A stretch of 64,000 bases of DNA, from assembly GCF_000768355.1 (NCBI RefSeq), contig NZ_AVPU01000017.1, positions 3,080-67,079 on the forward strand, in the 5' to 3' direction. The DNA comes from Lysobacter daejeonensis GH1-9. GTDB lineage: Bacteria; Pseudomonadota; Gammaproteobacteria; Xanthomonadales; Xanthomonadaceae. A program made the translations under genes and the position numbers. Positions 8,044 to 60,843 of the stretch are shown piece by piece. The notes under the pieces are model-generated. The model was given only the letters and a program-made list of their open reading frames with translations, was not told where the DNA came from and searched no databases. Each line of letters opens with the position of its first letter. Position 1 is the stretch's first letter.

Positions 8044-9795
8044 ATGCATCGCCCGATGTACCGCATTGCCGCCCTGGCCGCCGCCCTGGCCGCCGCCCTG
8101 GCCCTTGGCCTGGGGGCCGCGGCGCCCGCTGCCGCTGCGACCGCAGCCACGCAGGACGCCGCTCTCCCCACCGCAGCCCCAGCCCAGGCACCCACGCCCG
8201 CCGCCGTAGCCCGCTACGCCGCGCAACTGCTGGCCAAGACCTACGACCCCTTCGGCCCCGGCGCCGCGGTGCTGGTGATGCGCGGCGACCAGATGCTGTA
8301 CCGCGGGTCCATCGGCCGCGCCGACGTCACCGGCGCCAAGCCACTGACCGCCGACGGCATGTTCCGCATCGGCTCGGTGACCAAGCAGTTCGGTGCCGCC
8401 GGCGTGCTGCGCCTGGTGGAAGACGGCAAGGTCGCGCTCGACGACCCGCTGTCGAAGTACGTGCCCGGCTATCCCAATGGCGACGCTGTCACCGTGCGCC
8501 AGCTGCTGAACCACACCTCCGGCATCCGCAGCTACACCGACATGCCCGGGATGATGGACGGCCCGATCCAGCGCGACCTGACCACCGCGCAACTGATCGA
8601 CGTGTTCAAGAACGAGAAGCCCGACTTCGCCCCCGGCGAGGGCTGGCGCTACAACAACTCCGGCTACGTGCTGGTGGGCGCGGTGATCGAGGCGGCCAGC
8701 GGCATGCCGTGGCACCGCTACCTGCATGAGCAGTTCTTCGCGCCGCTGGGCATGACGCACACCGGCTACGGCCACGACCCGGACGTGGTCGCGCGCCAGG
8801 TGCACGGCTATTCGTGGGAAGGCGACAAGGTGGTGGACGCGCGCCCGATCAGCATGACCCAGCCGCACGCGGCCGGCGCGCTGGTGTCGAACGTGGATGA
8901 CCTGCACACCTGGAACCGCGCGCTGCACGAAGGCCGCGTGCTGAAGGACGCCAGCTACGTCGCCATGATCACGCCGCAGGACAAGGCGGTGGACGAAAAC
9001 TACGGCTACGGCATCACCGCCGGCCACGTGCGCGGGCGTCCGATGCTGGTGCACGGCGGCGGCATCTTCGGCTTCTCCACCACGCTCAACTATTTGCCCG
9101 GCGACGACATTAGCGTGGTGGTGCTGCAGAACGCCGACGGCGCGCGCGGTGGCAACGAAGGCCCCAGCGAACTGGCGCGGCGCATCGCCGCGTTCGCGCT
9201 GGGCGACCCGTACCCCACTGCGACGCCGATCGCCATCGACGCCGCCACGCTCAAGCAGTACGAAGGCGTGTACCGGCTGGACGAGAAGACCACCCGCACC
9301 CTGCGCGTGGTGGACGGCGGCCTGACCGGCCAGCGCACCGGCGGCCAGCGCGCCAAGCTCATCCCCATCGGCACGGACAGCTTCCTGTACGAGGACGGCT
9401 TCAACCGTTTCAACCTGCTGCGCGATGCCGAGGGCAGGGTCAACGCGATGGAGTTCTTCCACGAGGGCGAAGGCCCCGCCGTGGTCACCGCGCTGAGCAA
9501 CGAACCGCTGCCCGCCGACCGCGCCGCCGTCGAGCTGCCGGCCCCCGCGCTGCAGCGCCTGGTGGGCCGCTACGAGTTCAACGGCATGCCGATGCTGATC
9601 ACCGTGGCCGACGGCACCCTGCACGCCCAACTGGGCGGCCAGCCGGTGCTGCCGCTGAAGGCCGAGAGCGCCGACCGCTTCTACCCCACGGTGGTGGACG
9701 CCACGCTGGAGTTCACCCCCGCCAGCGGTACGCCCGACACCGTGACCCTGCACCAGAACGGCCAGCAACTGGCCTTCAAACGCACCGCCAACTGA
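8044..9795 (+). CDS. serine hydrolase, beta-lactamase/transpeptidase-like family (class C-like) with C-terminal domain
   Basis: Signal peptide; SxxK motif SVTKQF; YNNSGY and HGGG motifs. AAGGAGGA RBS before ATG 8044. Confidence 0.8.
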   Translation: MHRPMYRIAALAAALAAALALGLGAAAPAAAATAATQDAALPTAAPAQAPTPAAVARYAAQLLAKTYDPFGPGAAVLVMRGDQMLYRGSIGRADVTGAKPLTADGMFRIGSVTKQFGAAGVLRLVEDGKVALDDPLSKYVPGYPNGDAVTVRQLLNHTSGIRSYTDMPGMMDGPIQRDLTTAQLIDVFKNEKPDFAPGEGWRYNNSGYVLVGAVIEAASGMPWHRYLHEQFFAPLGMTHTGYGHDPDVVARQVHGYSWEGDKVVDARPISMTQPHAAGALVSNVDDLHTWNRALHEGRVLKDASYVAMITPQDKAVDENYGYGITAGHVRGRPMLVHGGGIFGFSTTLNYLPGDDISVVVLQNADGARGGNEGPSELARRIAAFALGDPYPTATPIAIDAATLKQYEGVYRLDEKTTRTLRVVDGGLTGQRTGGQRAKLIPIGTDSFLYEDGFNRFNLLRDAEGRVNAMEFFHEGEGPAVVTALSNEPLPADRAAVELPAPALQRLVGRYEFNGMPMLITVADGTLHAQLGGQPVLPLKAESADRFYPTVVDATLEFTPASGTPDTVTLHQNGQQLAFKRTAN

Positions 9796-10031
9796 CCTAC
9801 CCACTCCGCGCCCCCTTGCCGGGGGCGCGGACCGCCGCCTCACCCTGTCGGGGCGCGGGGTGCCCAGGCCGGTGCGCTGTGGGCGGGCACGGGGCGCAGG
9901 GGCACCGCACGTCGCGGCCCGATACCCGGCTTTGGTGCGGTGCCCCTGCACCCCATGCCCCGACGGGCTGAGGGTGGCCCCCGCGTGCTCAGACCCTAAA
10001 ATGGCGATCCGAACACCCCGGCTACGCCCCC

Positions 10032-11705
10032 ATGCTCCGCATCACTGACCTCAAGCTGCCTTTGGACCACCCGCCCGAGGCGCTGGAGGCGGCGGTGCGC
10101 GCCCGGCTGGGCCTGCGCGCGGACGAGCCGCTGACCGTGCACGTGTTCCGGCGCGGCCACGACGCCCGCAAGCGCGGGGACATCCAGCTGATCTACACGC
10201 TGGACATCGATACGCCGCGTGCGGCGGAGCTGCTGGCGCGAGAGCAGCCGGGTGCAGGCGGCGCAGCGCCCGCGGTCGCGCCGGCCAAGGGCGCGCCCAA
10301 GCTGAGCCCCACCCCCGACACCACCTACAAGCTGGTCACCCACGCCCCCGACGGCCTGACCGAGCGCCCCATCGTGGTCGGCTTTGGCCCGTGCGGCCTG
10401 TTCGCCGCGCTGCTGCTGGCGCAAATGGGCTTCCGCCCCATCGTGCTGGAGCGCGGCAAGGCCGTGCGCGAGCGCACCCAGGACACCTGGGGCCTGTGGC
10501 GCAAGCGCGAGCTGACGCCCGAATCCAACGTGCAGTTTGGCGAAGGCGGCGCCGGCACCTTCTCCGACGGCAAGCTGTACAGCCAGATCACCGACAAGGA
10601 ACACCGCGGCCGCAAGGTGCTGCGCGAGTTCGTGCTGGCCGGCGCGCCGGAGGAGATCGAGTACGTCAGCAAGCCGCACATCGGCACCTTCCGCCTGGTG
10701 TCGATGATCCAGAACATGCGCGAGCAGATCCTGCGCCTGGGCGGCGAGATCCGCTTCTCCGCGCGCGTGGACGACGTGCTGATCGACACCGACGCCGATG
10801 GCGTGCGCCACGTGCGCGGGGTGAAGCTGTCCGACGGCAGCGAGCTGCGCAGCGACCACGTGGTGATGGCGCTGGGCCACAGCGCGCGCGACACCTTCGC
10901 CATGCTGCATGCGCGCGGCGTGCACATGGAGGCCAAGCCATTCTCCATCGGCTTCCGCATCGAACACCCGCAGTCGCTGATCGACCGCGCGCGCTTCGGC
11001 CCGCAGGCCGGCCACCCGCTGCTGGGCGCGGCCGACTACAAGCTGGTGCACCACGCCAGGAACGGCCGCGCGGTGTACAGCTTCTGCATGTGCCCCGGCG
11101 GCACCGTGGTGGCCGCGACCAGCGAGCCCGAACGCGTGGTCACCAACGGCATGAGCCAGTACTCGCGCAACGAGCGCAACGCCAACGCCGGCATCGTGGT
11201 GGGCATCGAGCCAGCGGACTACGCCGACTACGACGACAGCGGTTCGCCGCTGGCGGGCGTGGCGCTGCAGCGGCACTTCGAGTCGCTGGCATATGAGCTG
11301 GGCGGGCGCACGTATGACGCGCCGGGGCAGCTGGTGGGCGACTTCATCGCCAACCGTGCGTCGACGGCGTTTGGCGAAGTGCAGCCGTCGTACAAGCCGG
11401 GGGTGCACCTGACCAACCTGGACAGCGCGCTGCCGCGCTATGCGATTGATGCGATCCGAGAGGCGTTGTCGGCGTTTGGAAAGCAGATCAGGGGGTTTGA
11501 TCGCGCCGATGCGGTGCTAACTGGTGTAGAGACGCGGACGTCGTCTCCAGTGCGCATCACCCGGGGCGATGATCTGCAGAGCCTCAACACGTGTGGGCTG
11601 TATCCGGCGGGCGAAGGTGCGGGTTATGCCGGTGGCATCCTGTCGGCGGGGGTGGATGGCATTCGTATTGCGGAGGCGGTGGCTCGGCACATCACGCAGC
11701 TGTGA
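10032..11705 (+). CDS. NAD(P)/FAD-dependent oxidoreductase (COG2509-type FAD-dependent dehydrogenase)
   Basis: N-terminus MLRITDLKLPLDH typical of this family; GxGxxG dinucleotide motif (VGFGPCGLFAALLLA); 557 aa. Confidence 0.7.
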   Translation: MLRITDLKLPLDHPPEALEAAVRARLGLRADEPLTVHVFRRGHDARKRGDIQLIYTLDIDTPRAAELLAREQPGAGGAAPAVAPAKGAPKLSPTPDTTYKLVTHAPDGLTERPIVVGFGPCGLFAALLLAQMGFRPIVLERGKAVRERTQDTWGLWRKRELTPESNVQFGEGGAGTFSDGKLYSQITDKEHRGRKVLREFVLAGAPEEIEYVSKPHIGTFRLVSMIQNMREQILRLGGEIRFSARVDDVLIDTDADGVRHVRGVKLSDGSELRSDHVVMALGHSARDTFAMLHARGVHMEAKPFSIGFRIEHPQSLIDRARFGPQAGHPLLGAADYKLVHHARNGRAVYSFCMCPGGTVVAATSEPERVVTNGMSQYSRNERNANAGIVVGIEPADYADYDDSGSPLAGVALQRHFESLAYELGGRTYDAPGQLVGDFIANRASTAFGEVQPSYKPGVHLTNLDSALPRYAIDAIREALSAFGKQIRGFDRADAVLTGVETRTSSPVRITRGDDLQSLNTCGLYPAGEGAGYAGGILSAGVDGIRIAEAVARHITQL

Positions 11706-11917
11706 GATAAACAGTTTTCAACTGCGAAGAGGTGTCAAGTTGCTTTTCCGTTCCGGACAAATTTGGTTCGCGCAGCGATTCTTCGCTCAAAGCCACGAAA
11801 CGCCTCTCGGATTGCCTCAATCACGCTGACTAGAGGTCGGTGACGACGTAGATGGAGTAGTCCAGGTAAGTTTGGAGGCATTACCCTAGACCATCCGCTC
11901 CAAAGGGACATTCGCGC

Positions 11918-13633
11918 ATGTCAATCGAGAATGCACTCGAGAACTTTGTCAGCTCAAAGGAACCGGGTGCGCTTGTACTGCAGGGTAAGTGGGGGCTTGG
12001 AAAGACATACTTTTGGCGCCGCCGCGTCGTCGAGCGCTATCTAGCTAAGCCTTGGCGGAAGAAATATTCATACGTTTCACTGTTTGGTATCGGCTCCCTC
12101 AGTGATATGAAAGTCGCCGTTTATCAGGCGACTCAAGAGTTCGATCACGACCTTCGTCGAAAGTGGTGGCGATGGATTCATCCCCAGTGGATCTGGTGGC
12201 GGATTCAATCATTTTTGCCCATCGCTCTCGACGTGGCTGATATACCCTACCTTCGAACAGGCCTTGCAAAGTCCTACGACGCGCTCAGCTACTACTTGGT
12301 CAAAGGCCGCTTGATCTGCTTCGACGACATTGAGCGTCGAGGGGAAGGCTTACCTATGCTCGACTTCCTTGGACTAGTTTCACAACTGGTGGATAAGCAG
12401 GGTTGTCGGGTTGTGGTGATCCTCAACACTGGTGGCCTCAACGCGACTGATCAGAAGGTGTGGGACGACAACAAAGAGAAGGTTTTCCACGGTGAGATGA
12501 CGTATGCGCCATCAATTGAGCAAAGCATCGATCTAGGACTTGAAACGTACTCCGGCGAGACTTGGTATCCCATCGCACGCAAGGCGCTCAGCGATCTTCG
12601 TGTCTCAAATATTCGGATAGTTCAGAGAACCGGACGACACGTGAAAGCGGCTCTAGACTCAGCAGGGAAGCGCGAGCTCTATCCCAGAACTATTGAGAGC
12701 ATCGTCCGAGTATTGGCCCTCTTGACGTACGCGCACAGCGGGCAGGCGGAAGGCGCGCCACCGCTTGACTTCGTTATGCGCTCTGGACCATTCGACATGG
12801 CGCTCTACTCAATGTCTGACAAGAAGGACAGGACGGAGAAAGAACTCGCGTGGATGCAATTGATAAGTGACTATCAGATCTTCGTCGGAGATGAATTGGA
12901 TAAGGCGCTCTGCCAGATGGTCATCAATGGATACCCAGACCCTGCGTTGATCGCATCGGAGGTCGACGCTTACCAAAGTAATGTCGAGTTAGAAAGTAGT
13001 AAGGAAGCATTTGAAAAAGCATGGTCGCTTTTTCACGACACCCTTGCGGAGAATCAAGAAGAGCTGGCAGACGCCCTGGAAAAAGCTTGGCCGCCAGTCT
13101 CGCACGTCGAGCGTGCGCATAACCTTCAGTCCACGGTGCGTTTACTTCGTTTGCTGGGTCGGCCAGAGGTCGGTAGCAAGTTCATCAAGGCGTGGATCGA
13201 ACAGCGAGGCGGCGAGAGACTAGGCGACCTCGACGAGGTCGCTATGTTCGGGCCAATCGATGATCCTGAGTTGGTAGAAGCTATTAGGCAAGCCCAGCTC
13301 AAAGCGCCTGTCGTGATGGATCTGAAGGAGGCGCTGGAGCTGCTCGGTTCAAGTGGTGGCATAAGCGATGCCGCTATCCAATCCGTCGCAAAGAGCACGC
13401 CGGAACGGATCGCGAGCGTTCTTACAGAGCACGCAGGCGCAAAGGCAAGGCGAGCGATAAAAACAGTTCTCGATTTCGGGACAGGTAATCCTTTGTGGGC
13501 AGAAGCCAGGCAGAAAATGCGACAGGCCTGCGAAGAGATTGCGAAACGCTCTCCGCTTTCTGCAGAGCGCATGAGCCGCTATGGGGTGACACTCAGTGCT
13601 AGCGGTCCAGATGCCAAGAATCAAATGAACTGA
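11918..13633 (+). CDS. KAP-family P-loop NTPase
   Basis: Walker A GKWGLGKTYF (KAP signature GxWGxGKT) and Walker B LICFDDIERR (KAP hhhhDDLDR). Gene and flanks are ~50% GC against a ~70% background. Confidence 0.75.
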   Translation: MSIENALENFVSSKEPGALVLQGKWGLGKTYFWRRRVVERYLAKPWRKKYSYVSLFGIGSLSDMKVAVYQATQEFDHDLRRKWWRWIHPQWIWWRIQSFLPIALDVADIPYLRTGLAKSYDALSYYLVKGRLICFDDIERRGEGLPMLDFLGLVSQLVDKQGCRVVVILNTGGLNATDQKVWDDNKEKVFHGEMTYAPSIEQSIDLGLETYSGETWYPIARKALSDLRVSNIRIVQRTGRHVKAALDSAGKRELYPRTIESIVRVLALLTYAHSGQAEGAPPLDFVMRSGPFDMALYSMSDKKDRTEKELAWMQLISDYQIFVGDELDKALCQMVINGYPDPALIASEVDAYQSNVELESSKEAFEKAWSLFHDTLAENQEELADALEKAWPPVSHVERAHNLQSTVRLLRLLGRPEVGSKFIKAWIEQRGGERLGDLDEVAMFGPIDDPELVEAIRQAQLKAPVVMDLKEALELLGSSGGISDAAIQSVAKSTPERIASVLTEHAGAKARRAIKTVLDFGTGNPLWAEARQKMRQACEEIAKRSPLSAERMSRYGVTLSASGPDAKNQMN

Positions 13634-13703
13634 GGCGACATTGCGTCGCCCGAAAATCTGGCGTTAGTCGGCCGCATTTGCCACTCGTCGGACGGCCCAA
13701 GAC

Positions 13704-13737
13704 AAGAAGCCCCGCCAATGGCGGGGCTTCTGCTTTT
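13704..13737. terminator. rho-independent terminator (possibly bidirectional) between the convergent KAP and ior genes
   Basis: GAAGCCCCGCC-aatg-GGCGGGGCTTC hairpin followed by TGCTTTT. Confidence 0.6.
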
Positions 13738-13890
13738 CAACTCAACCACCTGCCATCAGGTGGGAGGGTGTGGGTGCTGTGTCGCGCAAGAGCCGGCCAT
13801 GGATGGCCGGCGGCCCGACTCCGCGCAGGATTGCGCGGACGGAGGGTCGGCGCGGCACAGTGCCCGCGCCCTCCCACCGTGCGACAACCC

Positions 13891-16800
13891 TTACGCCACC
13901 TTCACAATCCGCAACGGATTATCCCACTCCTTCAACAGCGCCGCCTCACGCACCTTGGCGTCATGCAGGTGCTGTTCCTTGACGTGCCCATACCCACGGA
14001 TGTGCTCCGGAATCGAAGCAATCTCCGCCGCCAGATCCACGTTGCCGCGGTCCAGCTTCGGCAGCAGCCCTTCCACCGTGCGGATGTAATCGGCAATCAA
14101 CTGCCGCTCCATCTTCCGCTCCTCGGTGTAGCCGAACACGTCCAGCTTGGTGCCACGCAGCTTGCGCAGCTTGGCCAGCCACTTGAACGCCGTCAGCATC
14201 CACGGCCCGTACTCGGCCTTGACCAGCTGCCCGTCCGCGTTCTTCTTCGCGAACAGCGGCGGCGCCAGGTGGAACTTGAGCTTGTAGTCACCGTCGAACT
14301 GCTGCTGCACCCGGCGCAGGAACTCGCCGCTGGTGTACAGGCGCGCCACTTCGTACTCGTCCTTGTACGCCATCAGCTTGAACGCGTAGCGCGCCACGGC
14401 CTCGGTCAGGTCGGTGCTGCCCGGCGCCTTGGACTGCTCGGCGTCGCGCACGCGGTTGACGAAACCGGCGTAGCCCTTGGCGTACTCGGCGTCCTGGTAT
14501 TCGGTGAGGAACGCCACGCGGCGCGCGATCAGCTCGTCCAGCGAACGCGACAGGCGCTCGTCGTCCAGCGGCAGGAACGCGACGTTGTCGCCGCCGGCGT
14601 TGCTGGGCAGGTGGCGCAGCTCGTCCTCGTTGCGCACCGCGCGCGGCGCGGCGTTGGCGCCCCACTCATGGCCTTCCCACTCGGCCGGCGACAGCATCGG
14701 CAGCGCATGCGGGGTGGCCTCGGCGGCGGTCTGGGCGTTGCGGATCAGGCCGGCGGCCTCGGCCACCGCATTCGGGTCGATGACCGCCAGGCGGCCCCAC
14801 GCGAACGCGGTCTTGTTCATCTCCACCGCGGCGCCGTTGAGCTCGATGGCGCGCATCAGCGAGTCCATCGACAGCGGCACCAGGCCCTTCTGCCAGGCAT
14901 AGCCCAGGATGAACAGGTTGGTGGCAATCGCGTCGCCCATCAGCGCGGTGGCCAGCTGGGTGGCATCCACCGCGTGCAGGCCTTCGCCGCCCAGCGCGCC
15001 GTTGATCGCGGCGACGATGTCGGTGGCCGGGAACTGCATGTCCGGGCGGGTGGTGAAGGTGCCCGGCATGGCCTCGTAGGTGTTCAGCACCACCTGCGCG
15101 CGGCCGCTGCGGATCTTCGACAGCACCCAGTAGTCGTTGACCACGACCATGTCGCAACCCAGCACCAGGTCGGCCTCGCCGGCGGCGATGCGCACGGCGT
15201 GGATGTCATCGGGCGACTTGGCGATGCGGATGTGGGTGGTGACCGCGCCGCCCTTCTGCGCCAGGCCGGTCTGGTCCAGCACGGTGGCGCCGCGGCCCTC
15301 CAGGTGGCCGGCCATGCCCAGCAGCGCGCCGATGGTGACCACGCCGGTGCCGCCCACGCCGGTCAGCAGGATGTTCCACGGCTGCGACAGGTCGCTGGCC
15401 ACCTGCGGCAGCGGCAGGTTGGTCAAACGATCCTTCGCACCCGAACCCTTCTTCTTGCGCAGGCCACCACCTTCGACGGTGACGAAGCTGGGGCAGAAGC
15501 CGGTGGTGCAGCTGTAGTCCTTGTTGCAGTTGGACTGGTCGATCTCGCGCTTGCGGCCAAACTCGGTTTCCTTCGGCAGCACCGACACGCAGAACGACTT
15601 CTTGCCGCAGTCGCCGCAGCCTTCGCACACCAGCGAGTTGACCACCACGCGCTTCTGCGGGTCGACCATCTTGCCGCGCTTGCGGCGGCGGCGCTTCTCG
15701 GTGGCGCAGGTCTGGTCGTAGATCAGCACCGAGGTGCCCTTCACTTCGCGCAGGCGCTTTTGGATGGCGTCCAGGTCGGCGCGGTCGTGGAACTCCATCT
15801 CCGACGGGAACAGCTCGCGCTTGCTCCACTTCGCGATGTCGTCCGACACCAGGATGATGGTGTGCACGCCCTCGCTGCGCACCTGGTGGGCGATCTGCGG
15901 CACGGTCAGGGTGCCGTCCACCGGCTGGCCGCCGGTCATCGCCACCGCGTCGTTGTAGAGGATCTTGTAGGTGATGTTGACGCCGGCCGCGATCGACTGG
16001 CGGATGGCCAGCGAACCGCTGTGGAAGTAGGTGCCGTCGCCCAGGTTCTGGAACACGTGCGGGGTGTCGGTGAACGCCGCCTGGCCCGCCCACGTCACGC
16101 CTTCGCCGCCCATGTGGGTGAAGGTGTCGGTGTTGCGGTCCATCCACGTGACCATGTAGTGGCAGCCGATGCCGCCCAGCGCGCGCGAACCGTCCGGCAC
16201 CTTGGTGCTGGTGTTGTGCGGGCAGCCGGAGCAGTAGTGCGGCACGCGCGGGAACTGCGCGCGCGGCAGGGCCAGTTCGGATTCCTTCTCGGCCATCCAG
16301 CGCAGCACGTTCTGGATGTGCTCGCTGTCGTGGAACTTCTGGATGCGGCGGCCGATGACGCCGGCGATGGTGGCCGGGGTCAGCTCGCCGGTGCTGGGCA
16401 GGATCCACTCGCCGGCCTCGTCGTACTTGCCGACGATGCTCGGGCGCTGGCCCGGCCAGTTGTACATGTACTCCTTCATCTGCCGCTCGATGAAGGCGCG
16501 CTTCTCCTCGACGACGATGATGTCTTCCAGGCCTTCGGCGAAGGCGCGGATGCCCACCGGCTCCAGCGGCCAGGTCATGCCGACCTTGTACACGCGGATG
16601 CCGAGGTCGGCGCAGGCCTGCTCGTCCAGGCCCAGGTATTCCAGCGCCTGCAGCACGTCCAGGTACGACTTGCCGGTGGTGACGATGCCCAGGCGCGCGC
16701 GCGGCGAGTCGATCACCACGCGGTCGAGCTTGTTGGCACGGGCGAAGGCCTGCGCGGCCTTCACCGCGTACTTGTGCAGGCGCATCTCCTGGTTCATCGG

Positions 16801-17583
16801 CGGGTCCGGCCAGCGGATGTTGAGCCCGCCCTCCGGCATCTCGAAGTCGTCCGGGGTGATGATCTGCAGCGCCATCGGGTCGACGTCGACCGAGGCGGAG
16901 GACTCGACGGTTTCGGCGATGGTCTTGAAGCCCACCCAGCGGCCGGTGAAGCGGCTCATCTCCCAGCCGATCAGGCCCATCTCGAGGATGTCCTGCACGC
17001 CGGCCGGGTTGAGGATCGGCATCATCGCGCTGACGAACTCGTCCTCGCTGCCGTGCGGCAGGGTGGAGCTGCGGCAGGCGTGGTCGTCGGCGGCCAGCGC
17101 CAGCACGCCGCCGTAGCGGCCGGTGCCGGCCGCGTTGGCGTGCTTGAACACGTCACCGCAGCGGTCCACGCCGGGGCCCTTGCCGTACCACATGCCGTAC
17201 ACGCCATCGACCTTGGCGCCGGGGAACAGGTTGGTCTGCTGGGTGCCCCAGACCATGGTGGCGCCCAGGTCCTCGTTCAGGCCCGGGGTGAACTTCACGC
17301 CGGCCTTTTCCAGGTGCTTCTTGGCGCGCCACAGCTCCAGGTCGAAGCCGCCCAGCGGGCTGCCGCGGTAGCCGGAGATGAAGCCACCGGTGTTCAGGCC
17401 GTTGGCCTCGTCGCGCAGGCGCTGCATCAGCGGCAGGCGCACCAGGGCCTGCACGCCGCTCAGGTAGATGCGGCCCTTTTCCCGGCTGTACTTGTGCTCG
17501 AGGGTGTAGTCGGTGTCGACCACACTGTTGGTCAGGGCGGTGTTCGCCGAGGACGGCGAGCTGAGTTCGGCGGTGCTGGTCAT
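13891..17583 (-). CDS. indolepyruvate/2-oxoacid:ferredoxin oxidoreductase, fused alpha-beta (IorA/IorB family)
   Basis: ~1230 aa with TPP-binding and PFOR domains and a CxxCxxCxxxC ferredoxin-like cluster (CEGCGDCGKKSFC). ATG at 17581-17583 (reverse) chosen at MTSTAELSS. Confidence 0.85.
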   Translation of the reverse strand: MTSTAELSSPSSANTALTNSVVDTDYTLEHKYSREKGRIYLSGVQALVRLPLMQRLRDEANGLNTGGFISGYRGSPLGGFDLELWRAKKHLEKAGVKFTPGLNEDLGATMVWGTQQTNLFPGAKVDGVYGMWYGKGPGVDRCGDVFKHANAAGTGRYGGVLALAADDHACRSSTLPHGSEDEFVSAMMPILNPAGVQDILEMGLIGWEMSRFTGRWVGFKTIAETVESSASVDVDPMALQIITPDDFEMPEGGLNIRWPDPPMNQEMRLHKYAVKAAQAFARANKLDRVVIDSPRARLGIVTTGKSYLDVLQALEYLGLDEQACADLGIRVYKVGMTWPLEPVGIRAFAEGLEDIIVVEEKRAFIERQMKEYMYNWPGQRPSIVGKYDEAGEWILPSTGELTPATIAGVIGRRIQKFHDSEHIQNVLRWMAEKESELALPRAQFPRVPHYCSGCPHNTSTKVPDGSRALGGIGCHYMVTWMDRNTDTFTHMGGEGVTWAGQAAFTDTPHVFQNLGDGTYFHSGSLAIRQSIAAGVNITYKILYNDAVAMTGGQPVDGTLTVPQIAHQVRSEGVHTIILVSDDIAKWSKRELFPSEMEFHDRADLDAIQKRLREVKGTSVLIYDQTCATEKRRRRKRGKMVDPQKRVVVNSLVCEGCGDCGKKSFCVSVLPKETEFGRKREIDQSNCNKDYSCTTGFCPSFVTVEGGGLRKKKGSGAKDRLTNLPLPQVASDLSQPWNILLTGVGGTGVVTIGALLGMAGHLEGRGATVLDQTGLAQKGGAVTTHIRIAKSPDDIHAVRIAAGEADLVLGCDMVVVNDYWVLSKIRSGRAQVVLNTYEAMPGTFTTRPDMQFPATDIVAAINGALGGEGLHAVDATQLATALMGDAIATNLFILGYAWQKGLVPLSMDSLMRAIELNGAAVEMNKTAFAWGRLAVIDPNAVAEAAGLIRNAQTAAEATPHALPMLSPAEWEGHEWGANAAPRAVRNEDELRHLPSNAGGDNVAFLPLDDERLSRSLDELIARRVAFLTEYQDAEYAKGYAGFVNRVRDAEQSKAPGSTDLTEAVARYAFKLMAYKDEYEVARLYTSGEFLRRVQQQFDGDYKLKFHLAPPLFAKKNADGQLVKAEYGPWMLTAFKWLAKLRKLRGTKLDVFGYTEERKMERQLIADYIRTVEGLLPKLDRGNVDLAAEIASIPEHIRGYGHVKEQHLHDAKVREAALLKEWDNPLRIVKVA

Positions 17584-17781
17584 GCGTGGCTCCGGGCGCG
17601 GCGGGGGCCGGCGGGGTGGCTGCGGGGGCGGCGAATGCGGCGTCGGGGGCGTTGCGGGGCAACGGGCCGGTCGTGCAAAACCGGACAATTGTACCAGCGA
17701 CTAAAGTCTCAACCGGGCAAAATGGCCCGGCCCGGGACCGTACCGGGTACGATGGTGATTGCTTTACAGGGGGAAATAACC

Positions 17782-18507: not shown

Positions 18508-19704
18508 ATGTCCCTGTCGGCCTTGAGCGTCATGGTGGTCGAGGACCACGGCTTCCAGCGCCGGATGGCGTTGCGCCTGCTCGCCGAACTGGGTGTCACT
18601 GACGTTCACCAGGCCGCCGATGGTGCCGGCGCGTTAAGCCAGCTGGACGGCCTGGACCGGATCCCGGACGTGGTGATGGTCGACCTGGACATGCCGGGCA
18701 TGGACGGCATCGAATTCATCGGCCACGTCGCGCAGCGCCGGCTGGCCCGCGCGGTGGTGGTGGTCAGTGCCCTCGATGCGGCGCTGCTCAACACCGTGCA
18801 GACCATGGCCCACGCCTACGGCCTGCGCGTGCTGGGCAGCGTGGAGAAGCCGCTGACCCTGGACAAGCTGGCCGTCGCGCTGGAGGACTATGTCCACGGG
18901 CCGCACGACGATGTCGCTGACGAGCCCATGGAGATCAGCGCCAGCACCATCCGCGAGGCGCTGGCCGCCAACGAGATCACGCCGTGGTACCAGCCGCAGG
19001 TGGAGTTCGCCAATGCCCGCGTGGTCGGGGTGGAAGCCCTGGCACGCTGGGTCCGCGCGGATGGCCACGTGGTGCCTCCGACGCATTTCATCGGCCTGCT
19101 GGAGCGCGAGGGCCTGCTTGAGGCACTGACCGACCACATGCTGGTCCAGGCCTGCCGCGACAAGCGTCGCTGGGACGAGCAGGGCCTGCACCTGACGCTG
19201 TCGGTGAACGTGTCGCCGACCTCGCTGACGCTCAACAGCGCCGCCGACCGCTACCAGCGCCTGGTGGAGGCCGAGGGCGTGGACCCGGCCGACGTCATCC
19301 TGGAGATCACCGAGAGCTCGGTGATGGCCGATGCCGCGCGCGGACTGGGGGTGATGGCGCGCCTGCGGCTGAAGGGCTTCGGCCTGTCGATCGATGATTT
19401 CGGCACCGGCTGGTCGTCGCTGGCGCAGTTGTCGCAGGTGCCGTTCACCGAACTCAAGATCGACCAGGGGTTCGTATCGGGCGCGCACAAGCAACCGCGC
19501 AAGCGTGCGGTGGTCGAAGCCAGCCTGGACCTGGCGCGCAAGCTGGATCTGAAGGTCGTGGCCGAGGGCGTGGAAAGCATCGAGGACTGGCGGATGCTGG
19601 CCGAACTGGGTTGCGGCATCGCCCAGGGCACGCTGATCTCGCGCCCGGTGCCGGCGGCACTCGTGCCAGATGTAGTGGCGCACTGGCGGCGGCCGGGGGC
19701 CTGA
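18508..19704 (+). CDS. response regulator with receiver and EAL (c-di-GMP phosphodiesterase) domains
   Basis: REC motifs (VMVVEDH, D at VDLDMPGMDG) followed by an EAL domain (EALARW, EITES, DDFGTG, KIDQGF). Confidence 0.85.
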   Translation: MSLSALSVMVVEDHGFQRRMALRLLAELGVTDVHQAADGAGALSQLDGLDRIPDVVMVDLDMPGMDGIEFIGHVAQRRLARAVVVVSALDAALLNTVQTMAHAYGLRVLGSVEKPLTLDKLAVALEDYVHGPHDDVADEPMEISASTIREALAANEITPWYQPQVEFANARVVGVEALARWVRADGHVVPPTHFIGLLEREGLLEALTDHMLVQACRDKRRWDEQGLHLTLSVNVSPTSLTLNSAADRYQRLVEAEGVDPADVILEITESSVMADAARGLGVMARLRLKGFGLSIDDFGTGWSSLAQLSQVPFTELKIDQGFVSGAHKQPRKRAVVEASLDLARKLDLKVVAEGVESIEDWRMLAELGCGIAQGTLISRPVPAALVPDVVAHWRRPGA

Positions 19705-57999: not shown

Positions 58000-58748
58000 G
58001 CGGCGTGCCGCCCGCGGAGGACCACGAGGCAGGGGCCTCCGATGTCCTTGGCCGTGACGTGCTCGCGCAGGTGAGCATGGACCGCATCGCTGCGCAACTC
58101 GGCGACCTACCGACGGCGGCCCTGCTGCAATCGCTGGGCGGGATCCTCGATGCCCTCGACGGGGCGGATGCGACGCGCGCCGCGCGGCGGGTCGGGGTGA
58201 TCGGCCGTCTTCTGGGTCGCGACCTGGTGGCGCGGGCGCATCCAGATCCCACCGAGGCGCGCGTGCGCGTCCATTTGGCCCATGCCGCCACGCAAGCCAC
58301 ACAGCTTGAATGCCATTTGGTCGGGCTGCAGGCGACCGTCGCGCAGCTGGAATCGAGCACCCGGCGACTGCAGGCACTCGTTGATGGCCGGCAGGCAATG
58401 GCCGCCGCAGAAGCTTACTTGGGGGGCGAGTCTGGACGTCGCCGGCTGGCCTACCTCGCGGCGATTGTCGATTCGTGGCGCGTCTCCGCGGCGCAACTGC
58501 ATCTGGCCATTGGCAACGCGCGCCAGTTGCTGGAGCGGCACGGCCAAGTGCGTGATTTTCTGGTACCGCTATGGCGCCAGCAGGCCACCGCGGCCGAAGT
58601 CGGGCGTCGCCTGCGTGACCAGGACGCCAGTCGCGCCGCGGACCTGCGGCATAGCCTGCGGCGGCTGTTGGAGACGTTAGGCACCGCCACACCCGACTCA
58701 CCCACCGTCAACTCCGCACCACCGGCCGAAAGGGAGCCTTTGCCATGA
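57996..58748 (+). CDS. coiled-coil protein, possibly a divergent TelA-like paralog
   Basis: ATGA-coupled to the AAA+ gene. Shares a VIGrLLGRDLV-type segment with the downstream TelA-like protein; otherwise no motifs. Confidence 0.4.
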   Translation: MSGVPPAEDHEAGASDVLGRDVLAQVSMDRIAAQLGDLPTAALLQSLGGILDALDGADATRAARRVGVIGRLLGRDLVARAHPDPTEARVRVHLAHAATQATQLECHLVGLQATVAQLESSTRRLQALVDGRQAMAAAEAYLGGESGRRRLAYLAAIVDSWRVSAAQLHLAIGNARQLLERHGQVRDFLVPLWRQQATAAEVGRRLRDQDASRAADLRHSLRRLLETLGTATPDSPTVNSAPPAEREPLP

Positions 58749-59842
58749 CCGAGTCCACCACCGACGTCGCCAACCCGCTGTCCGTGCCCACGCTCGACGA
58801 GGCCACGCTGCTGCAGCTCGGCCTTGCCGCGACCGATCTCGACCGCGTGGGAGAGATCCGTGCCACGTTGGTCGATCTCTCGCCCGCGAACGTGCAGGGT
58901 TACGGCCGCGACGCAGCCACCAAGACCACGCAATTCTCCAGTGAGCTGCTGGACCAGGTCCGCAACCGCGATCTGGATGCTACCGGCGACAAGCTGGGCG
59001 AGGTGGTGCGCATTGCGCGCAACCTCAACCTGCAGAAGTTCGGTGGGCGCTCCAAGCTGCCCGTGATCGGTCCGTTGATCGACCGGGTGCGCGGCTCCAA
59101 GGGCGAACTGGTGCAGAAATTCAGCACGACCAACCAGCAGATCGAACACCTGATGCGCGACGTTTCGCGGCAGCAGGAAGACTTGGGCAGGCGTGTGCGC
59201 GATTTCGATCGAATGCACGGCATCGTGGTGGTCGAGCGCCATGAGCTGGGTCTGCATGTCGCGGCTGGCAAGCTGCGGTTGGCCGAGCTGGAGGTTGAAC
59301 GTTCGGCACTGGAAGGACGTGACGATCCCGAGGCCCGGGCACGCCGGCAGGAGATCGACGGCGCTGTGCGTCTGCTCGACAAGCGCGTGGGCGACCTGCT
59401 GCTACTGCAGCACGCGGCCGACCAGTCGCTGCCGATGATCCGCATGATCCAGGCCAACGCGATGCAGCTGATCGAGAAGTTTGCAACGGTCCGCGACATT
59501 ACGATCCCTGCGTGGAAACGCAGCTTCGCCATTCAACTCTCACTCAATGAGCAGAAGAGCGCCGTCGAGCTGGCCAACGCCATCGATGACGCGACCAATG
59601 AGTTGATGCGCCGCAATGCCGACATGTTGCACGAGAACTCGGTGGCCACGGCCAAGGCCAACCAGCGAGGCGTGGTTGACGTCGAGACGTTGCAGCACGT
59701 GCACGAGAAGCTGATCCAGACTGTCGAGGACGTGCGCCAGATCCATCGCGAGGGTATCGAGAAGCGCCGGCAGGCCGAGCAGGACCTGAGCCGGATGCGC
59801 GACGACGTGCAGAAGCGCCTGGCCGCGCCGACGCTGGGCTGA
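58745..59842 (+). CDS. toxic anion resistance protein TelA/KlaB family
   Basis: C-terminal half TIPAWKRSFAIQLSLNEQKSAVELANAIDDATNELMRRNADMLHENSVATAKANQRGVVDVETLQHVHEKLIQTVEDVRQIHREGIEKRRQAEQDL aligns closely, as I recall it, with the TelA consensus (TIPLWKNQ...TNELLRKNAEML...ENERGIVDIETL...IQ.EGR.KRR.AE). ATGA overlap. Confidence 0.8.
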   Translation: MTESTTDVANPLSVPTLDEATLLQLGLAATDLDRVGEIRATLVDLSPANVQGYGRDAATKTTQFSSELLDQVRNRDLDATGDKLGEVVRIARNLNLQKFGGRSKLPVIGPLIDRVRGSKGELVQKFSTTNQQIEHLMRDVSRQQEDLGRRVRDFDRMHGIVVVERHELGLHVAAGKLRLAELEVERSALEGRDDPEARARRQEIDGAVRLLDKRVGDLLLLQHAADQSLPMIRMIQANAMQLIEKFATVRDITIPAWKRSFAIQLSLNEQKSAVELANAIDDATNELMRRNADMLHENSVATAKANQRGVVDVETLQHVHEKLIQTVEDVRQIHREGIEKRRQAEQDLSRMRDDVQKRLAAPTLG

Positions 59843-60549: not shown

Positions 60550-60843
60550 ATTCGTGATCAGACAACCATAGGCCGAACCGGGAGCCAAGCATAGTTGCTA
60601 CGCCGAACGCTCAGAAATGGCAGGACATTGATTGGGTGAACAGCCATAACGAGCGCAAAGTGTTTCAAATCAAGGGCATAAACCCCGAATCTCCCGTCGC
60701 CAAACAATCAAAGTGGGTGTCACTGAGTCCACGAGGCGAAGTACCAGCACGAGCACCACATGCGACTTGTCTAGGCGTAGAGTCATTCGTGCACCGTTCG
60801 CACGGTCCTGAATGCAGCCTAGAGATAAACAGGAGACGCCGAC

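What the first reader, a model, noticed from the sequence alone, without database searches (positions are those of the whole stretch)
11706..13700. Low-GC islet carrying a solitary KAP-family P-loop NTPase
A ~2 kb segment at ~50% GC is embedded in ~70% GC DNA, between an FAD oxidoreductase gene and the convergent indolepyruvate:ferredoxin oxidoreductase gene. It encodes one 571-aa protein with the KAP NTPase Walker A (GKWGLGKTYF) and Walker B (CFDDIERR). There are no transposase, integrase or flanking repeats. KAP NTPases are poorly understood and are sporadically distributed. They are often associated with mobile or defence contexts (established knowledge of the family). Here one appears as a clean single-gene horizontal insertion that ends at a strong terminator (13704-13737).
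Basis: partly seen in the sequence, partly recalled or inferred. Interest (0 to 1): 0.7.

Follow-up and report, generated by a model that had tools for sequence, protein, structure and literature searches.

The report
Imported KAP-like NTPase replaced signalling gene
A 2-kb piece of foreign, low-GC DNA in a Lysobacter chromosome carries one intact gene for a KAP-like ATPase from a large, untested family that elsewhere sits in anti-phage defence islands and prophages, and here it replaced a c-di-GMP signalling gene rather than simply inserting.

Summary
Window 11687-13703 (2,017 bp, GC about 0.53 against 0.69) is the deepest GC trough in the window. It carries one intact 571-aa ORF (11918-13633) with Walker A GKWGLGKT and Walker B CFDDIERR.

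The interpretation needs three corrections:
- It is a replacement, not a clean insertion. The closest relatives (flanks 91-96% identical) carry a ~980-aa GAF-GGDEF-EAL gene in this slot.
- The hairpin at 13705-13731 is native. It is Ior's terminator, and the junction removed its U-tract.
- "KAP" holds only for the motif architecture. Pfam KAP_NTPase scores 16.7 bits (cutoff 20) on the P-loop alone.

The protein belongs to a large, uniform family (2,133 50%-identity clusters at E<=1e-30) that matches PADLOC candidate PDC-S49 and phrog_4740. Homologues sit beside Gabija, Thoeris ThsB, Shango SngB, PDC-S06, PDC-S39, type I R-M and integrases, and on prophages and phage-plasmids. No partner gene is conserved.

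Most likely it is a single-gene anti-phage NTPase with an alpha-solenoid sensor. No member has been tested, so the mechanism is inferred.

An unexpected extra is a strand-asymmetric cluster of C>T/G substitutions in the 290 bp of native DNA next to the left junction.

This is a new member of a known kind, of moderate interest.

The parts
11687..13703 (.). Foreign low-GC segment (2,017 bp). It replaces the 3,330 bp (GAF-GGDEF-EAL gene plus its upstream region) found here in the closest relatives.
   Evidence: blastn homology with L090-L095 stops at 11686 and resumes at 13704. GC about 0.53 against 0.69.
11918..13633 (+). Intact 571-aa ORF: a KAP-like P-loop NTPase (PDC-S49-like / phrog_4740 family).
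   Evidence: ORF. PADLOC PDC-S49 E=3.4e-21. phrog_4740 E=1.2e-44. 183 homologues, most full length. All 24 family-invariant residues are retained. AF2 model pLDDT 87.7.
11984..12007 (+). Walker A, G23-KWGLGK-T30 (the KAP-type GxWGxGK[ST] form).
   Evidence: Invariant G23 W25 G26 G28 K29. The motif is present in 47/47 members and in PifA (GAWGSGKT).
12089..12307 (+). Helical insert (aa 58-130) between strand 2 and Walker B, holding a Trp/Arg-rich segment WWRWIHPQWIWWRIQSFLP. No transmembrane helix.
   Evidence: Model helices 61-83, 90-106 and 110-126, with pLDDT 52-67. Best Wimley-White 19-mer -9.7 kcal/mol. The motif is conserved in the >=38%-identity subclade. Kyte-Doolittle 19-residue windows in the insert stay below 0.9.
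12311..12340 (+). Walker B with KAP-type extension, L132-ICFDDIER-R141.
   Evidence: Invariant C134 D136 D137 E139 R140. DD[ILVM][DE]R occurs in 46/47 members and in PifA (VVMDDLDR).
12665..13633 (+). C-terminal all-alpha domain (aa 250-571, 18 helices), solenoid-like and with no recognisable catalytic fold. Presumed sensor or effector region.
11687..11917 (+). 5' end of the foreign segment. It supplies the new last ~6 codons and stop of the FAD-oxidoreductase gene (11687-11705), then a 212-bp upstream region of the NTPase gene with an AAGGGA Shine-Dalgarno-like site ending 12 nt before the ATG.
   Evidence: Sequence. The tail is ...ARHITQL* here, against ...ARAIIASR*/ARAIMG*/ARAIMSSR* in relatives. 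No sigma-70 consensus match. No DNA similarity to any homologue locus outside the CDS.
11400..11686 (+). Native 3' end of the FAD-oxidoreductase gene, carrying a window-specific, strand-asymmetric substitution cluster that abuts the left junction.
   Evidence: 25/248 against 27/1088 window-specific changes (p=7e-7). Changes from + strand C 20/83 against from G 4/92 (p=1.4e-4). GC3 is 0.60-0.76 here and 0.8-1.0 in relatives. The nearest relatives are unchanged.
13704..13742 (.). Native hairpin (stem 13705-13717 / 13719-13731) at the right junction. It is not part of the islet. It is ior's intrinsic terminator in relatives.
   Evidence: 90% identical to L095 12644-12682, with a compensatory C-G to T-A stem change. 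dG is -25.5 (+) and -26 (-) kcal/mol. The U-tract UUGUUUUUUUG present in L095 is replaced by UGUCUUGG in the window.
10032..11705 (+). Left flank: the FAD-dependent oxidoreductase gene (native except for its last ~6 codons).
   Evidence: ORF. Orthologues at 91-96% identity with conserved upstream synteny.
13891..17688 (-). Right flank: the indolepyruvate:ferredoxin oxidoreductase-type gene (POR/DUF6537), native.
   Evidence: ORF. 93-96% DNA identity to relatives. No excess substitutions near the junction.

Best explanation
What is shown. In the lineage of this Lysobacter daejeonensis-type chromosome, a 2,017-bp foreign fragment (11687-13703) replaced a 3.3-kb segment encoding a GAF-GGDEF-EAL c-di-GMP protein. 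The exchange shows no sign of site-specific recombination. The fragment carries one intact gene for a 571-aa soluble P-loop NTPase. Its layout is: an N-terminal ASCE/AAA+-like core with KAP-type motifs (GxWGxGKT, hhhhDD[IL][DE]R); a ~70-aa helical insert between them; a lid; and a ~320-aa alpha-solenoid C-terminal domain. It belongs to a large, length-uniform family that recurs, without a fixed partner gene, in defence islands, integrase-bounded islands, prophages and phage-plasmids.

What is inferred. It is a stand-alone anti-phage protein of the 'KAP NTPase fused to a region of unknown function' type. The alpha-solenoid domain recognises a phage component. That recognition switches the NTPase, through NTP binding or hydrolysis and probably oligomerisation as in STAND and AAA+ relatives. 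The output blocks phage multiplication. The more likely output is action at the inner membrane through the Trp/Arg-rich insert, which sits where classical KAP and YobI proteins carry transmembrane helices; this would resemble PifA. The alternative is ATP consumption, as in Tmn.

Approximate probabilities: defence role 0.6-0.65; membrane-directed output 0.25.
For: Foreign origin and swap:
- GC 0.53 and GC3 0.59, against 0.69 and 0.90-0.94 in the flanks.
- Six relatives' loci have beta-lactamase, FAD oxidoreductase, a convergent GAF-GGDEF-EAL gene, then ior. None has the NTPase.
- The outgroup L. koreensis also has GGDEF-EAL next to an ior fragment, so the window's state is the derived one.
- The homology breakpoints are sharp, at 11686 and 13704.
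- No GGDEF-EAL remnant survives in the foreign segment, and the window holds only a paralogous EAL-type match (34% identity, 18943-19665), not the lost gene.

Intact, conserved gene:
- All 24 family-invariant residues are kept.
- The models are confident: pLDDT 87.7 for the whole protein and 92.0 for the C-terminal half.

Family:
- 9,114, 6,780 and 2,133 cluster representatives at E<=1e-3, 1e-10 and 1e-30. The top 150 are 547-612 aa and match the profile end to end.
- 47/47 members hit PADLOC PDC-S49, and 41/47 weakly hit Pfam KAP_NTPase.
- The motif architecture is shared with PifA.

Context:
- PADLOC-confirmed neighbours are GajA/GajB, ThsB (E=1.5e-135), SngB, PDC-S06 (twice), PDC-S39 and DUF4238-Pers.
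- Other neighbours include type I R-M, integrases, MobA, TraG, H-NS and Dcm/Vsr.
- The neighbouring gene differs in each of 10 contexts, so no partner is conserved.
- The family occurs in Burkholderia temperate phages beside a RelE toxin-antitoxin pair, in Klebsiella ~110-kb phage-plasmids, and on 92 IMG/VR viral contigs.
- The gene's GC is below its surroundings in all 11 contexts examined.

Fold:
- The C-terminal domain matches only helical-repeat scaffolds, with no enzyme fold.

Precedent from the literature:
- KAP NTPases fused to uncharacterised C-terminal regions protect against phages, and need both Walker B and the C-terminal region (PMC13552941).
- PifA is a KAP member without transmembrane helices that excludes T7 through membrane lesions. 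Tmn, a YobI-family NTPase, acts through ATP turnover and plasmolysis (PMC13001434).
Against: - No member of this family, nor PDC-S49, has been tested experimentally as far as I could find (0 papers mention PDC-S49).
- The PDC-S49 profiles match only the N-terminal ~205 residues of this protein, out of 619-629 profile positions.
- Pfam KAP_NTPase is below its cutoff, and PifA homology beyond Walker A is not demonstrable.
- The protein has no recognisable effector domain and no transmembrane segment, so the output step is conjecture.
- The Trp-rich insert is modelled with low confidence (pLDDT 52-67) and is not conserved in distant family members.
- At this locus the gene is solitary, with no neighbouring defence genes, and no promoter-like site was found upstream. 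Expression is unproven.
- Guilt by association with defence islands also fits other mobile-element cargo functions.
Confidence: 0.55

Rival explanations
1. The gene is mobile-element cargo that serves the element rather than the host. Examples would be a prophage or plasmid superinfection-exclusion or competition factor, or an accessory ATPase for replication, partition or packaging. In this chromosome it would be a stranded passenger with no current role.
For: Full-length relatives sit in temperate phages, phage-plasmids and 92 viral contigs. In the Klebsiella phage-plasmid the gene overlaps an upstream small ORF that follows an AAA ATPase gene, and lies between the tail-fibre and DnaB/primase modules. 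Many contexts are bounded by an integrase or MobA.
Against: Exclusion by a prophage is itself anti-phage defence, so this rival overlaps the main reading. The positions in phage genomes are moron-like, beside a RelE toxin-antitoxin pair at a genome end, not inside core modules. Many copies sit among chromosomal defence systems with no phage genes nearby. The gene here is intact, with all invariant residues kept.
Confidence: 0.2
2. It is a DNA-transaction AAA+ protein, an initiator- or target-selector-like ATPase in the manner of ORC/Cdc6, DnaA, TnsC or MuB. It would act in replication or recombination of some element, not in immunity.
Confidence: 0.07
3. The gene is functionally inert here: a recent, unexpressed and possibly xenogeneically silenced acquisition on its way to decay. 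The biologically meaningful event would then be the loss of the GGDEF-EAL signalling gene.
For: No promoter-like site lies upstream. The AT-rich composition would favour H-NS-type silencing, and H-NS genes lie beside homologues in two other Lysobacterales genomes. The swap removed a 980-aa c-di-GMP protein that all sampled close relatives retain.
Against: The ORF is full length with every invariant residue intact. A plausible Shine-Dalgarno-like site precedes the family-supported start codon. The promoter scan covers only sigma-70 consensus sites.
Confidence: 0.1
4. The gene is an ancient resident of this locus, and its low GC is an intrinsic property of the gene.
For: The gene family is AT-richer than its host in every genome examined, so low GC alone does not prove recent arrival.
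Against: All six close-relative loci (flank DNA 85-96% identical) lack the gene and carry a different gene in the slot. The closest homologue anywhere is only 58% identical. The other Lysobacter copy (L. silvisoli) is 45% identical and lies at an unrelated locus.
Confidence: 0.02

Closest known systems
PADLOC 'phage defence candidate' PDC-S49 (single-gene candidate; models PDLC05029-05031)
   Same: It is the best library match (E=3.4e-21). All 47 sampled family members match it. It has a similar length class (profiles of 619-629 positions), a single-gene architecture and defence-island residency. The Klebsiella phage-plasmid relative matches profile positions 9-450.
   Different: For the window protein only residues 2-205 align (profile positions 8-205 of 624), so the C-terminal 365 residues are not covered. 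PDC-S49 is a computational candidate only: I found no paper that mentions it, and papers using PADLOC treat PDC genes as candidates, apart from the predicted systems (PMC11514479).
PifA of the F plasmid (founding prokaryotic KAP NTPase; excludes phage T7)
   Same: Both have the GxWGxGK[ST] Walker A, the hhhhDD[IL][DE]R Walker B, and a long insert between them (150 aa in PifA, 113 aa here). Neither has a transmembrane segment, and both have a large C-terminal region (PMC13001434 for PifA lacking transmembrane helices).
   Different: PifA scores 148.5 bits over the full Pfam KAP_NTPase profile, while this protein scores 16.7 bits on 22 residues. hhalign between the family profile and PifA gives 35% probability over 39 columns. 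The PADLOC PifA model does not hit this protein. PifA is 741 aa and lies in an operon with pifC.
Experimentally validated 'KAP P-loop NTPase fused to a region of unknown function' defences (EF_KAP and three metagenomic proteins; PMC13552941, PLoS Biol 2026)
   Same: Each is a single polypeptide with an N-terminal KAP-type NTPase and a C-terminal region of about 320 aa that has no known domain or structural match. They are linked to mobile and defence loci.
   Different: EF_KAP is modelled with two transmembrane helices, one N-terminal and one within the NTPase domain (PMC13552941), whereas this family has none. Those proteins come from Firmicutes and gut metagenomes.
[quoted passage not shown]
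   Same: It is a stand-alone P-loop NTPase defence with an insertion after Walker A, and it is found alongside Gabija. The X. campestris homologue of the window protein also lies in the same island as a GajA/GajB pair, about 4.8 kb away.
   Different: YobI-ATPase (PF20693) is hit weakly by only 1 of 47 members. This family has no transmembrane helices. Tmn's decameric membrane-pore architecture has no support here.
STAND NTPases / Avs-type sensors
   Different: There is no N-terminal or C-terminal effector domain such as a nuclease, TIR, SIR2 or protease. ORC/Cdc6-type AAA+ proteins score higher than STANDs. The long insert between Walker A and B is a KAP-type feature, not a STAND one.

Membership tests
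KAP NTPase (Pfam PF07693) | Profile match at or above the curated gathering score (20 bits) across the NTPase domain | tested here: not met
   The window protein scores 16.7 bits, E=0.0046, on residues 12-33 only. The positive control PifA scores 148.5 bits over profile positions 2-290 of 293. 41/47 family members match at E<=0.01, with a best E of 2.8e-7. At least one distant member passes the cutoff (Klebsiella, 34.6 bits).
KAP NTPase (Pfam PF07693) | KAP-type Walker A, GxWGxGK[ST] | tested here: met
   GKWGLGKT at residues 23-30. Present in 47/47 members. PifA has GAWGSGKT.
KAP NTPase (Pfam PF07693) | Walker B extended to hhhhDD[LI][DE]R | tested here: met
   LICFDDIERR at residues 132-141. 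Present in 46/47 members. PifA has VVMDDLDR.
KAP NTPase (Pfam PF07693) | Transmembrane helices associated with or inserted in the NTPase domain (Aravind et al. 2004, as cited in PMC13552941 and PMC13001434; PifA is a recognised exception) | tested here: not met
   An insert of 68-102 aa is present at the right position in all members. No segment in it reaches TM-like hydrophobicity: Kyte-Doolittle 19-residue windows stay below 0.9 in the window protein's insert, and there is no conserved TM-like segment in the family.
PADLOC PDC-S49 | Significant match to the PDC-S49 profiles over most of their length | tested here: inconclusive
   E=3.4e-21, but only profile positions 8-205 of 624. 47/47 members match. 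A distant relative covers positions 9-450. PADLOC's own coverage thresholds could not be applied with these tools.
PADLOC PDC-S49 | Demonstrated anti-phage activity | not testable with these tools
   No paper in the library mentions PDC-S49. PDC entries are candidates only (PMC11514479).
PifA-type exclusion protein | Homology to F-plasmid PifA beyond the P-loop | tested here: not met
   hhalign of the family profile against PifA gives probability 35% over 39 columns around Walker A. The PADLOC PifA model does not appear among hits at E<=1, while it scores 963 bits on PifA itself.
KAP NTPase + region-of-unknown-function defence class (PMC13552941) | Single protein with an N-terminal KAP-type NTPase and a large C-terminal region lacking any known domain or structural match | tested here: met
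KAP NTPase + region-of-unknown-function defence class (PMC13552941) | Phage protection that depends on Walker B and on the C-terminal region | not testable with these tools
   This needs plaque assays with point and deletion mutants.
STAND NTPase | NB-ARC/NACHT-type profile match, plus a fused effector domain | tested here: not met
   The window protein has no such hit. Only 3-4 of 47 members give weak NB-ARC or NACHT hits. No effector-type fold was detected.
YobI/Tmn family | YobI-ATPase profile match and two transmembrane helices inside the P-loop domain | tested here: not met
   PF20693 is hit by 1 of 47 members at E=0.0012. No TM-like segments were found.
Classical genomic island / integrative element | Integrase or transposase, a tRNA or other att target, and flanking direct repeats | tested here: not met
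   No tRNA in the window. No integrase or transposase ORF in or beside 11687-13703. Only short repeats at chance level. No clear microhomology at the junctions.
Defence-island resident gene family | Recurrent neighbourhood of known defence systems across unrelated genomes | tested here: met
   Neighbours confirmed with PADLOC models are GajA/GajB, ThsB, SngB/BrxD, PDC-S06 (twice), PDC-S39 and DUF4238-Pers. Type I R-M, AAA_15 and integrases also occur. This does not hold at the window's own locus, where the flanks are metabolic genes.

The most novel reading that the evidence does not exclude
The 290 bp of native DNA abutting the left junction (11400-11686) carry a fossil of the acquisition event itself. 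This is a kataegis-like cluster in which about a quarter of all + strand cytosines (half of those at third codon positions) changed, mostly C>T and C>G, while guanines were largely spared. The + strand is the strand that would be exposed as the 3' single-stranded tail after 5'-3' resection of a break at the junction. The cluster would then record cytosine damage on resected single-stranded DNA during the illegitimate recombination that swapped a c-di-GMP gene for a defence-candidate gene. If that is general, strand-asymmetric mutation clusters could be used to find, orient and date integrase-independent gene-transfer junctions in bacterial genomes.
Probability: 0.2. Interest if true: 0.65.

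Novelty: new member of a known kind. Interest (0 to 1): 0.4.

Why it matters
1. Single-gene KAP-type NTPases have only just been shown to be anti-phage proteins (PMC13552941). This window protein belongs to a much larger, length-uniform, transmembrane-less family (over 2,000 clusters at 50% identity) that is catalogued only as a PADLOC candidate. It rides on prophages and on clinically common Klebsiella phage-plasmids. It is a well-defined, easily clonable target for testing whether and how such proteins work without a recognisable effector.

2. The locus is a clean natural example of integrase-independent replacement of a housekeeping signalling gene by defence-type cargo. The breakpoints are resolved to within a few bases, and collateral edits fall on both neighbours: a rewritten protein tail on one side, and a terminator stripped of its U-tract on the other.

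3. The strand-asymmetric mutation cluster at one junction is unusual and cheap to look for elsewhere.

4. On a practical level, the public annotation of this gene (N800_05550) starts 63 codons too late and omits the Walker A motif.

Tried and rejected
- **Genome-contig scan with the FAD oxidoreductase.** Synteny was obtained instead from the search for homologous proteins plus look-up of encoding contigs.
- **Foldseek against afdb50.** The library was unavailable.
- **The spacer holds an inverted remnant of the FAD-oxidoreductase 3' end** (inverted repeat 11444-11467 / 11799-11822, 22/24 matches). Support is weak: blastx E=0.03 in a tiny search space. The ancestral sequence already matches 19/24, and three of four window-specific changes raise the match. 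I treat it as probably chance sharpened by the AT-biased changes; templated mutagenesis is not excluded.
- **The low-GC3 end of the FAD-oxidoreductase gene was imported with the islet from another lineage.** Rejected. Its nearest relatives are the same as for the rest of the gene (93-94% amino-acid identity). Its unique residues (P480S, R521C) hit nearly invariant positions. The spectrum is strand-asymmetric.
- **A matching substitution gradient on the ior side.** None found.
- **Remnants or a relocated copy of the lost GGDEF-EAL gene.** None found; only a 34%-identical paralogous EAL domain at 18943-19665.
- **A conserved partner gene.** None across 10 contexts.
- **Other searches.** tRNAs: none. 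Rfam: only a sub-threshold hit on the hairpin. Sigma-70 promoter scan: none. PDB sequence search: none. NCBIfam: none. Literature on PDC-S49: none.
- **DNA similarity of the islet's non-coding ends to any homologue locus.** None, so neither a donor nor cassette ends could be identified.
Full report

Yes. With 300-bp windows, GC drops to 0.50-0.58 between about 11650 and 13750, while both flanks stay at 0.65-0.78. Over the whole 64-kb window the 300-bp GC has mean 0.681 and sd 0.050. The minimum (0.49) lies at 12801, and 11601-13750 is the longest stretch below 0.58.

The stretch contains one long ORF, 11918-13633 on the + strand, 571 aa. Its GC3 is 0.59, against 0.90 for the upstream FAD-oxidoreductase gene and 0.94 for the downstream convergent ior-type gene. 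The Walker A (GKWGLGKT, residues 23-30) and Walker B (LICFDDIERR, residues 132-141) read by the first stage are there, and they are invariant in the family.

The window has no tRNA. There is no integrase or transposase ORF at the islet. Only short repeats at chance level flank it.

The window matches Lysobacter daejeonensis GH1-9: protein P0001, locus tag N800_05550, is 100% identical.

**2. Where exactly are the boundaries, and what was there before?**

A first attempt at synteny failed.

I then searched the protein database with the FAD oxidoreductase, which gave orthologues at 96, 95, 91 and 76% identity, and fetched their contigs.

In four metagenomic contigs (L091-L094), a 27-kb contig (L095) and Lysobacter olei (L090) the order is:
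- beta-lactamase,
- FAD oxidoreductase,
- a convergent 980-987-aa GAF-GAF-GGDEF-EAL gene whose 3' end overlaps the FAD-oxidoreductase stop by 11-17 bp,
- an extra beta-lactamase (L. olei only),
- ior.

The more distant L. koreensis (L096) also has the GGDEF-EAL gene next to an ior fragment. The relatives' arrangement is therefore ancestral, and the window's is derived.

blastn of the window against these loci shows homology up to window position 11686. It resumes at 13704 (the hairpin) and again from 13870 into ior, at 85-96% identity. Base-level alignments confirm both breakpoints to within a few bases.

The foreign segment is therefore 11687-13703 (2,017 bp). It replaces 3,330 bp of L095 (9314-12643). 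No remnant of the GGDEF-EAL gene survives in the foreign segment, and the window holds only a 34%-identical paralogous EAL match at 18943-19665.

It also shows the event was a swap and not a clean insertion.

**3. Collateral effects on the neighbours.**

The left breakpoint lies about 19 bp inside the FAD-oxidoreductase gene. Its tail reads ...ARHITQL* in the window, and ...ARAIIASR*...ARAIMG* or ...ARAIMSSR* in relatives.

The right breakpoint lies immediately beside the hairpin 13705-13731. That hairpin is native: it is 90% identical to L095 and carries a compensatory C-G to T-A stem change. It is strong on both strands, at -25.5 and -26 kcal/mol.

In L095 the hairpin is followed on ior's strand by UUGUUUUUUUG, which makes it a canonical intrinsic terminator for ior. 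In the window the junction has replaced that tract with UGUCUUGG. On the + strand the stem is followed by GCUUUUCAA.

So the 'strong terminator that ends the insertion' is really ior's terminator, now without its U-tract. It may also serve the incoming gene.

**4. What is the protein?**

| Test | Result |
|---|---|
| Pfam KAP_NTPase | 16.7 bits, below the 20-bit cutoff, residues 12-33 only |
| NCBIfam | no match |
| PDB sequences | no match |
| PADLOC PDC-S49 | E=3.4e-21, residues 2-205 |
| PHROGs phrog_4740 | E=1.2e-44, residues 1-403 |

A database search found 183 homologues. Most are 560-590 aa and align over 96-100% of the query. The closest is only 58% identical.

An exhaustive profile search over 1.84 billion cluster representatives found 9,114, 6,780 and 2,133 members at E<=1e-3, 1e-10 and 1e-30. 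The top 150 are all 547-612 aa and match the profile end to end. This is a large, architecturally uniform family.

Across 47 members:
- 41 give weak KAP_NTPase hits (best E 2.8e-7);
- a few give weak NB-ARC, NACHT or AAA_16/22 hits;
- all 47 match PDC-S49.

As a positive control I extracted PifA from the F plasmid. PifA scores 148.5 bits over the whole KAP profile. The family profile aligns to PifA only around Walker A (hhalign probability 35%).

PifA and this family do share three things: the KAP-type motifs (GxWGxGK[ST] and DD[IL][DE]R), a long insert between them, and the absence of transmembrane segments.

My reading is that this is a divergent, soluble branch of the KAP-like NTPases. Formal Pfam membership is not met for this protein.

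The public annotation starts at Met64 and so omits the invariant Walker A. The family alignment supports Met1.

**5. Structure.**

AlphaFold2 with the 47-sequence alignment gave a confident model (pLDDT 87.7, pTM 0.72). It shows:
- a five-stranded ASCE core;
- a three-helix insert (residues 58-130, pLDDT 52-67) between strand 2 and Walker B;
- a helical lid containing invariant N231 and R233;
- an all-alpha C-terminal half.

The insert contains WWRWIHPQWIWWRIQSFLP. Its Wimley-White interfacial free energy is -9.7 kcal/mol for the 19-mer. A similar Trp-rich motif (4-7 Trp) is conserved in the subclade at 38% identity or above, but not in distant members, although every member keeps an insert of 68-102 aa. 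No transmembrane-like segment is present.

**6. Genomic company.**

I examined ten independent contexts of homologues. The neighbours are as follows.

| Locus | Neighbours |
|---|---|
| Luteimonas fraxinea | TraG-like, DUF4365, AbiU2-HEPN, H-NS |
| X. campestris | integrase, RadC, Dcm/Vsr |
| L087 | MobA, integrase, TerB/BrxCD |
| L088 | TerB, DEAD helicase, integrase |
| L100 | integrase island |
| L101 | type I R-M, AAA_15 ATPase |

A scan of ten neighbouring proteins with PADLOC models confirmed GajA and GajB, ThsB (E=1.5e-135), SngB, PDC-S06 in two different genomes, PDC-S39 and DUF4238-Pers.

The adjacent gene differs from place to place, so there is no conserved partner.

In L. silvisoli and Rhodanobacter the gene sits among housekeeping genes, as it does here. 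The L. silvisoli copy is 45% identical, has GC 0.52 against 0.69 for its flanks, and lies next to an H-NS gene. It is a second, independent islet of the same kind.

In all 11 contexts examined the gene is AT-richer than its surroundings.

Full-length relatives at about 25% identity also occur:
- in temperate Burkholderia phages, next to a RelE toxin-antitoxin pair at the genome end;
- in an E. coli phage-plasmid;
- in ~110-kb Klebsiella IncFIB phage-plasmids, between the tail-fibre and DnaB/primase modules;
- on 92 IMG/VR viral contigs.

DNA similarity between the islet and any homologue locus is confined to the coding region. No donor could be named.

**7. How it most likely works.**

Shown: a recently imported, intact, single-gene KAP-like NTPase of a defence-island and prophage-borne family.

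Inferred: it is a stand-alone anti-phage protein.

[quoted passage not shown] That protection requires both the Walker B motif and the C-terminal region (PMC13552941). PifA is the classical KAP protein without transmembrane helices that aborts T7 infection through membrane lesions. Tmn, of the YobI family, acts by ATP turnover and plasmolysis (PMC13001434).

By analogy, and given the anatomy, I propose three steps:
- the C-terminal solenoid senses a phage component;
- the NTPase acts as the switch, probably with oligomerisation;
- the output is either membrane perturbation through the Trp/Arg-rich insert, which occupies the position where KAP and YobI proteins carry membrane helices, or nucleotide depletion.

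I put the defence role at about 0.6-0.65 and the membrane-output step at about 0.25.

Against this:
- nothing in this family or in PDC-S49 has been tested;
- the protein has no recognisable effector;
- the insert is poorly modelled and only subclade-conserved;
- no promoter was found;
- at this locus there are no other defence genes.

The rivals are mobile-element-serving cargo, a DNA-transaction AAA+ protein, silent junk and an ancient resident. Each is weighed in its own section; the last is contradicted by synteny.

**8. An unexpected scar.**

GC3 in the FAD-oxidoreductase gene is 0.88-1.0 until about 11410. It then drops to 0.60-0.76 over the last ~95 codons, whereas relatives keep 0.8-1.0 there.

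I counted sites where three relatives agree and the window differs:
- 25/248 sites in 11400-11686, against 27/1088 upstream (Fisher p=7e-7);
- changes start from + strand C at 20/83 sites but from G at only 4/92 (p=1.4e-4);
- the spectrum is C>T 13, C>G 5, C>A 2, against G>A 3;
- half of all third-position C's have changed.

The patch was not imported from another lineage. Its nearest relatives are the same as for the rest of the gene. Its private residues (P480S, R521C) fall at positions conserved in 119/120 and 110/120 homologues.

The ior flank shows no such excess.

The affected strand is the one that would form the 3' single-stranded tail after resection of a break at the junction. A cluster of cytosine damage acquired during the swap is therefore an attractive reading, but it is unproven.

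A 24-nt inverted repeat (11444-11467 against 11799-11822, 22/24 matches) links the patch to the foreign spacer. Three of four window-specific changes in the first arm raise the match from 19 to 22. This could be coincidence under AT-biased change, or templated mutagenesis.

**9. Novelty and verdict.**

The gene is a new member of a known kind: a KAP-like, PDC-S49-type single-gene defence candidate. A specialist would not be surprised by its presence.

Four things raise it above routine:
- the size and uniformity of an untested, effector-less family that also rides on Klebsiella phage-plasmids;
- the finely resolved, integrase-independent replacement of a c-di-GMP gene;
- the edited neighbours;
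- the strand-asymmetric mutation cluster at one junction.

Interest: 0.4.

Noticed in passing
window 11400-11686 (3' end of the FAD-oxidoreductase gene): A window-specific substitution cluster abuts the left junction: 25/248 sites against 27/1088 upstream (p=7e-7). It is strongly strand-asymmetric, with changes from + strand C at 20/83 sites and from G at 4/92. The spectrum is C>T 13, C>G 5, C>A 2. GC3 is 0.60-0.76 here, against 0.8-1.0 in relatives. It is not an imported allele, and there is no counterpart on the ior side.
   Followed up: partly
window 11444-11467 and 11799-11822: A 24-nt inverted repeat (22/24) joins the FAD-oxidoreductase coding sequence to the foreign spacer. The minus strand of the spacer reads ...VIEAIREAF..., weakly like FAD-oxidoreductase residues 445-486 (blastx E=0.03). 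Three of four window-specific changes in the first arm increase the match. It could be chance or templated mutagenesis.
   Followed up: partly
window 11918-12106 (codons 1-63 of the NTPase gene): The public protein record for this gene (N800_05550, 508 aa) starts at Met64. It lacks the invariant Walker A, although homologues align from residue 1. The annotated start is probably wrong.
   Followed up: yes
window 13690-13745 compared with L095 12630-12690: In relatives, ior's terminator hairpin is followed on ior's strand by UUGUUUUUUUG. In the window the junction replaced this with UGUCUUGG, so ior may now terminate poorly and read into the islet antisense.
   Followed up: partly
window 11687-11705: The last ~6 codons of the FAD-oxidoreductase gene come from the foreign DNA. 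The tail is ...ARHITQL* here, and ...ARAIIASR*...ARAIMG* or ...ARAIMSSR* in relatives.
   Followed up: yes
window 13745-13870 (includes inverted repeat 13759-13787 / 13850-13878): A GC-rich stretch of about 125 bp with a 29-nt imperfect inverted repeat lies between the hairpin and the ior stop. It is absent from L095 and L091, and partly present in L. olei (window 13704-13805 matches L090). It is a variable intergenic element of unknown nature.
   Followed up: no
L090 (L. olei) 12902-14434; L096 (L. koreensis) 9685-16423: The interval between the FAD-oxidoreductase gene and ior varies among Lysobacter species. L. olei has an extra beta-lactamase gene there. L. koreensis has DUF938, YkuD, LysR and other genes before the GGDEF-EAL gene, and only an ior fragment. 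The slot seems prone to changes in gene content.
   Followed up: no
L081 10001-12426 (Lysobacter silvisoli): This is a second, independent solitary low-GC islet carrying a family member (45% identical; GC 0.52 against 0.69). It lies at an unrelated locus, between an autotransporter lipase gene and an H-NS-family gene. An H-NS gene also lies in the Luteimonas island.
   Followed up: partly
L098 4932-7719 (Klebsiella pneumoniae ~110-kb IncFIB phage-plasmid): The distant family member here overlaps the end of a 118-aa ORF that follows a 221-aa 'AAA family ATPase' gene. This suggests a three-gene operon in this branch, unlike the solitary arrangement elsewhere. In the plasmid collection, 74 of the 146 matching records are Klebsiella.
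   Followed up: no
window 58745-62713: This is another region of lower GC (60351-62100 is below 0.58). It holds a TelA-family gene (58745-59842), a PLD-like-domain gene (59842-60549), small ORFs with no family match, and an IS21-type IstB gene (61958-62713). It is probably a separate mobile or accessory patch.
   Followed up: partly
L084/L085/L086 11767-14043 and L082 14057-16681: An AAA_13-type ATPase matching PADLOC candidate PDC-S06 (E down to 1.8e-279) lies 63 bp downstream of the family member in X. campestris, and 2.3 kb away in Luteimonas fraxinea. This recurrence in two genera might reflect a shared island or functional coupling.
   Followed up: no
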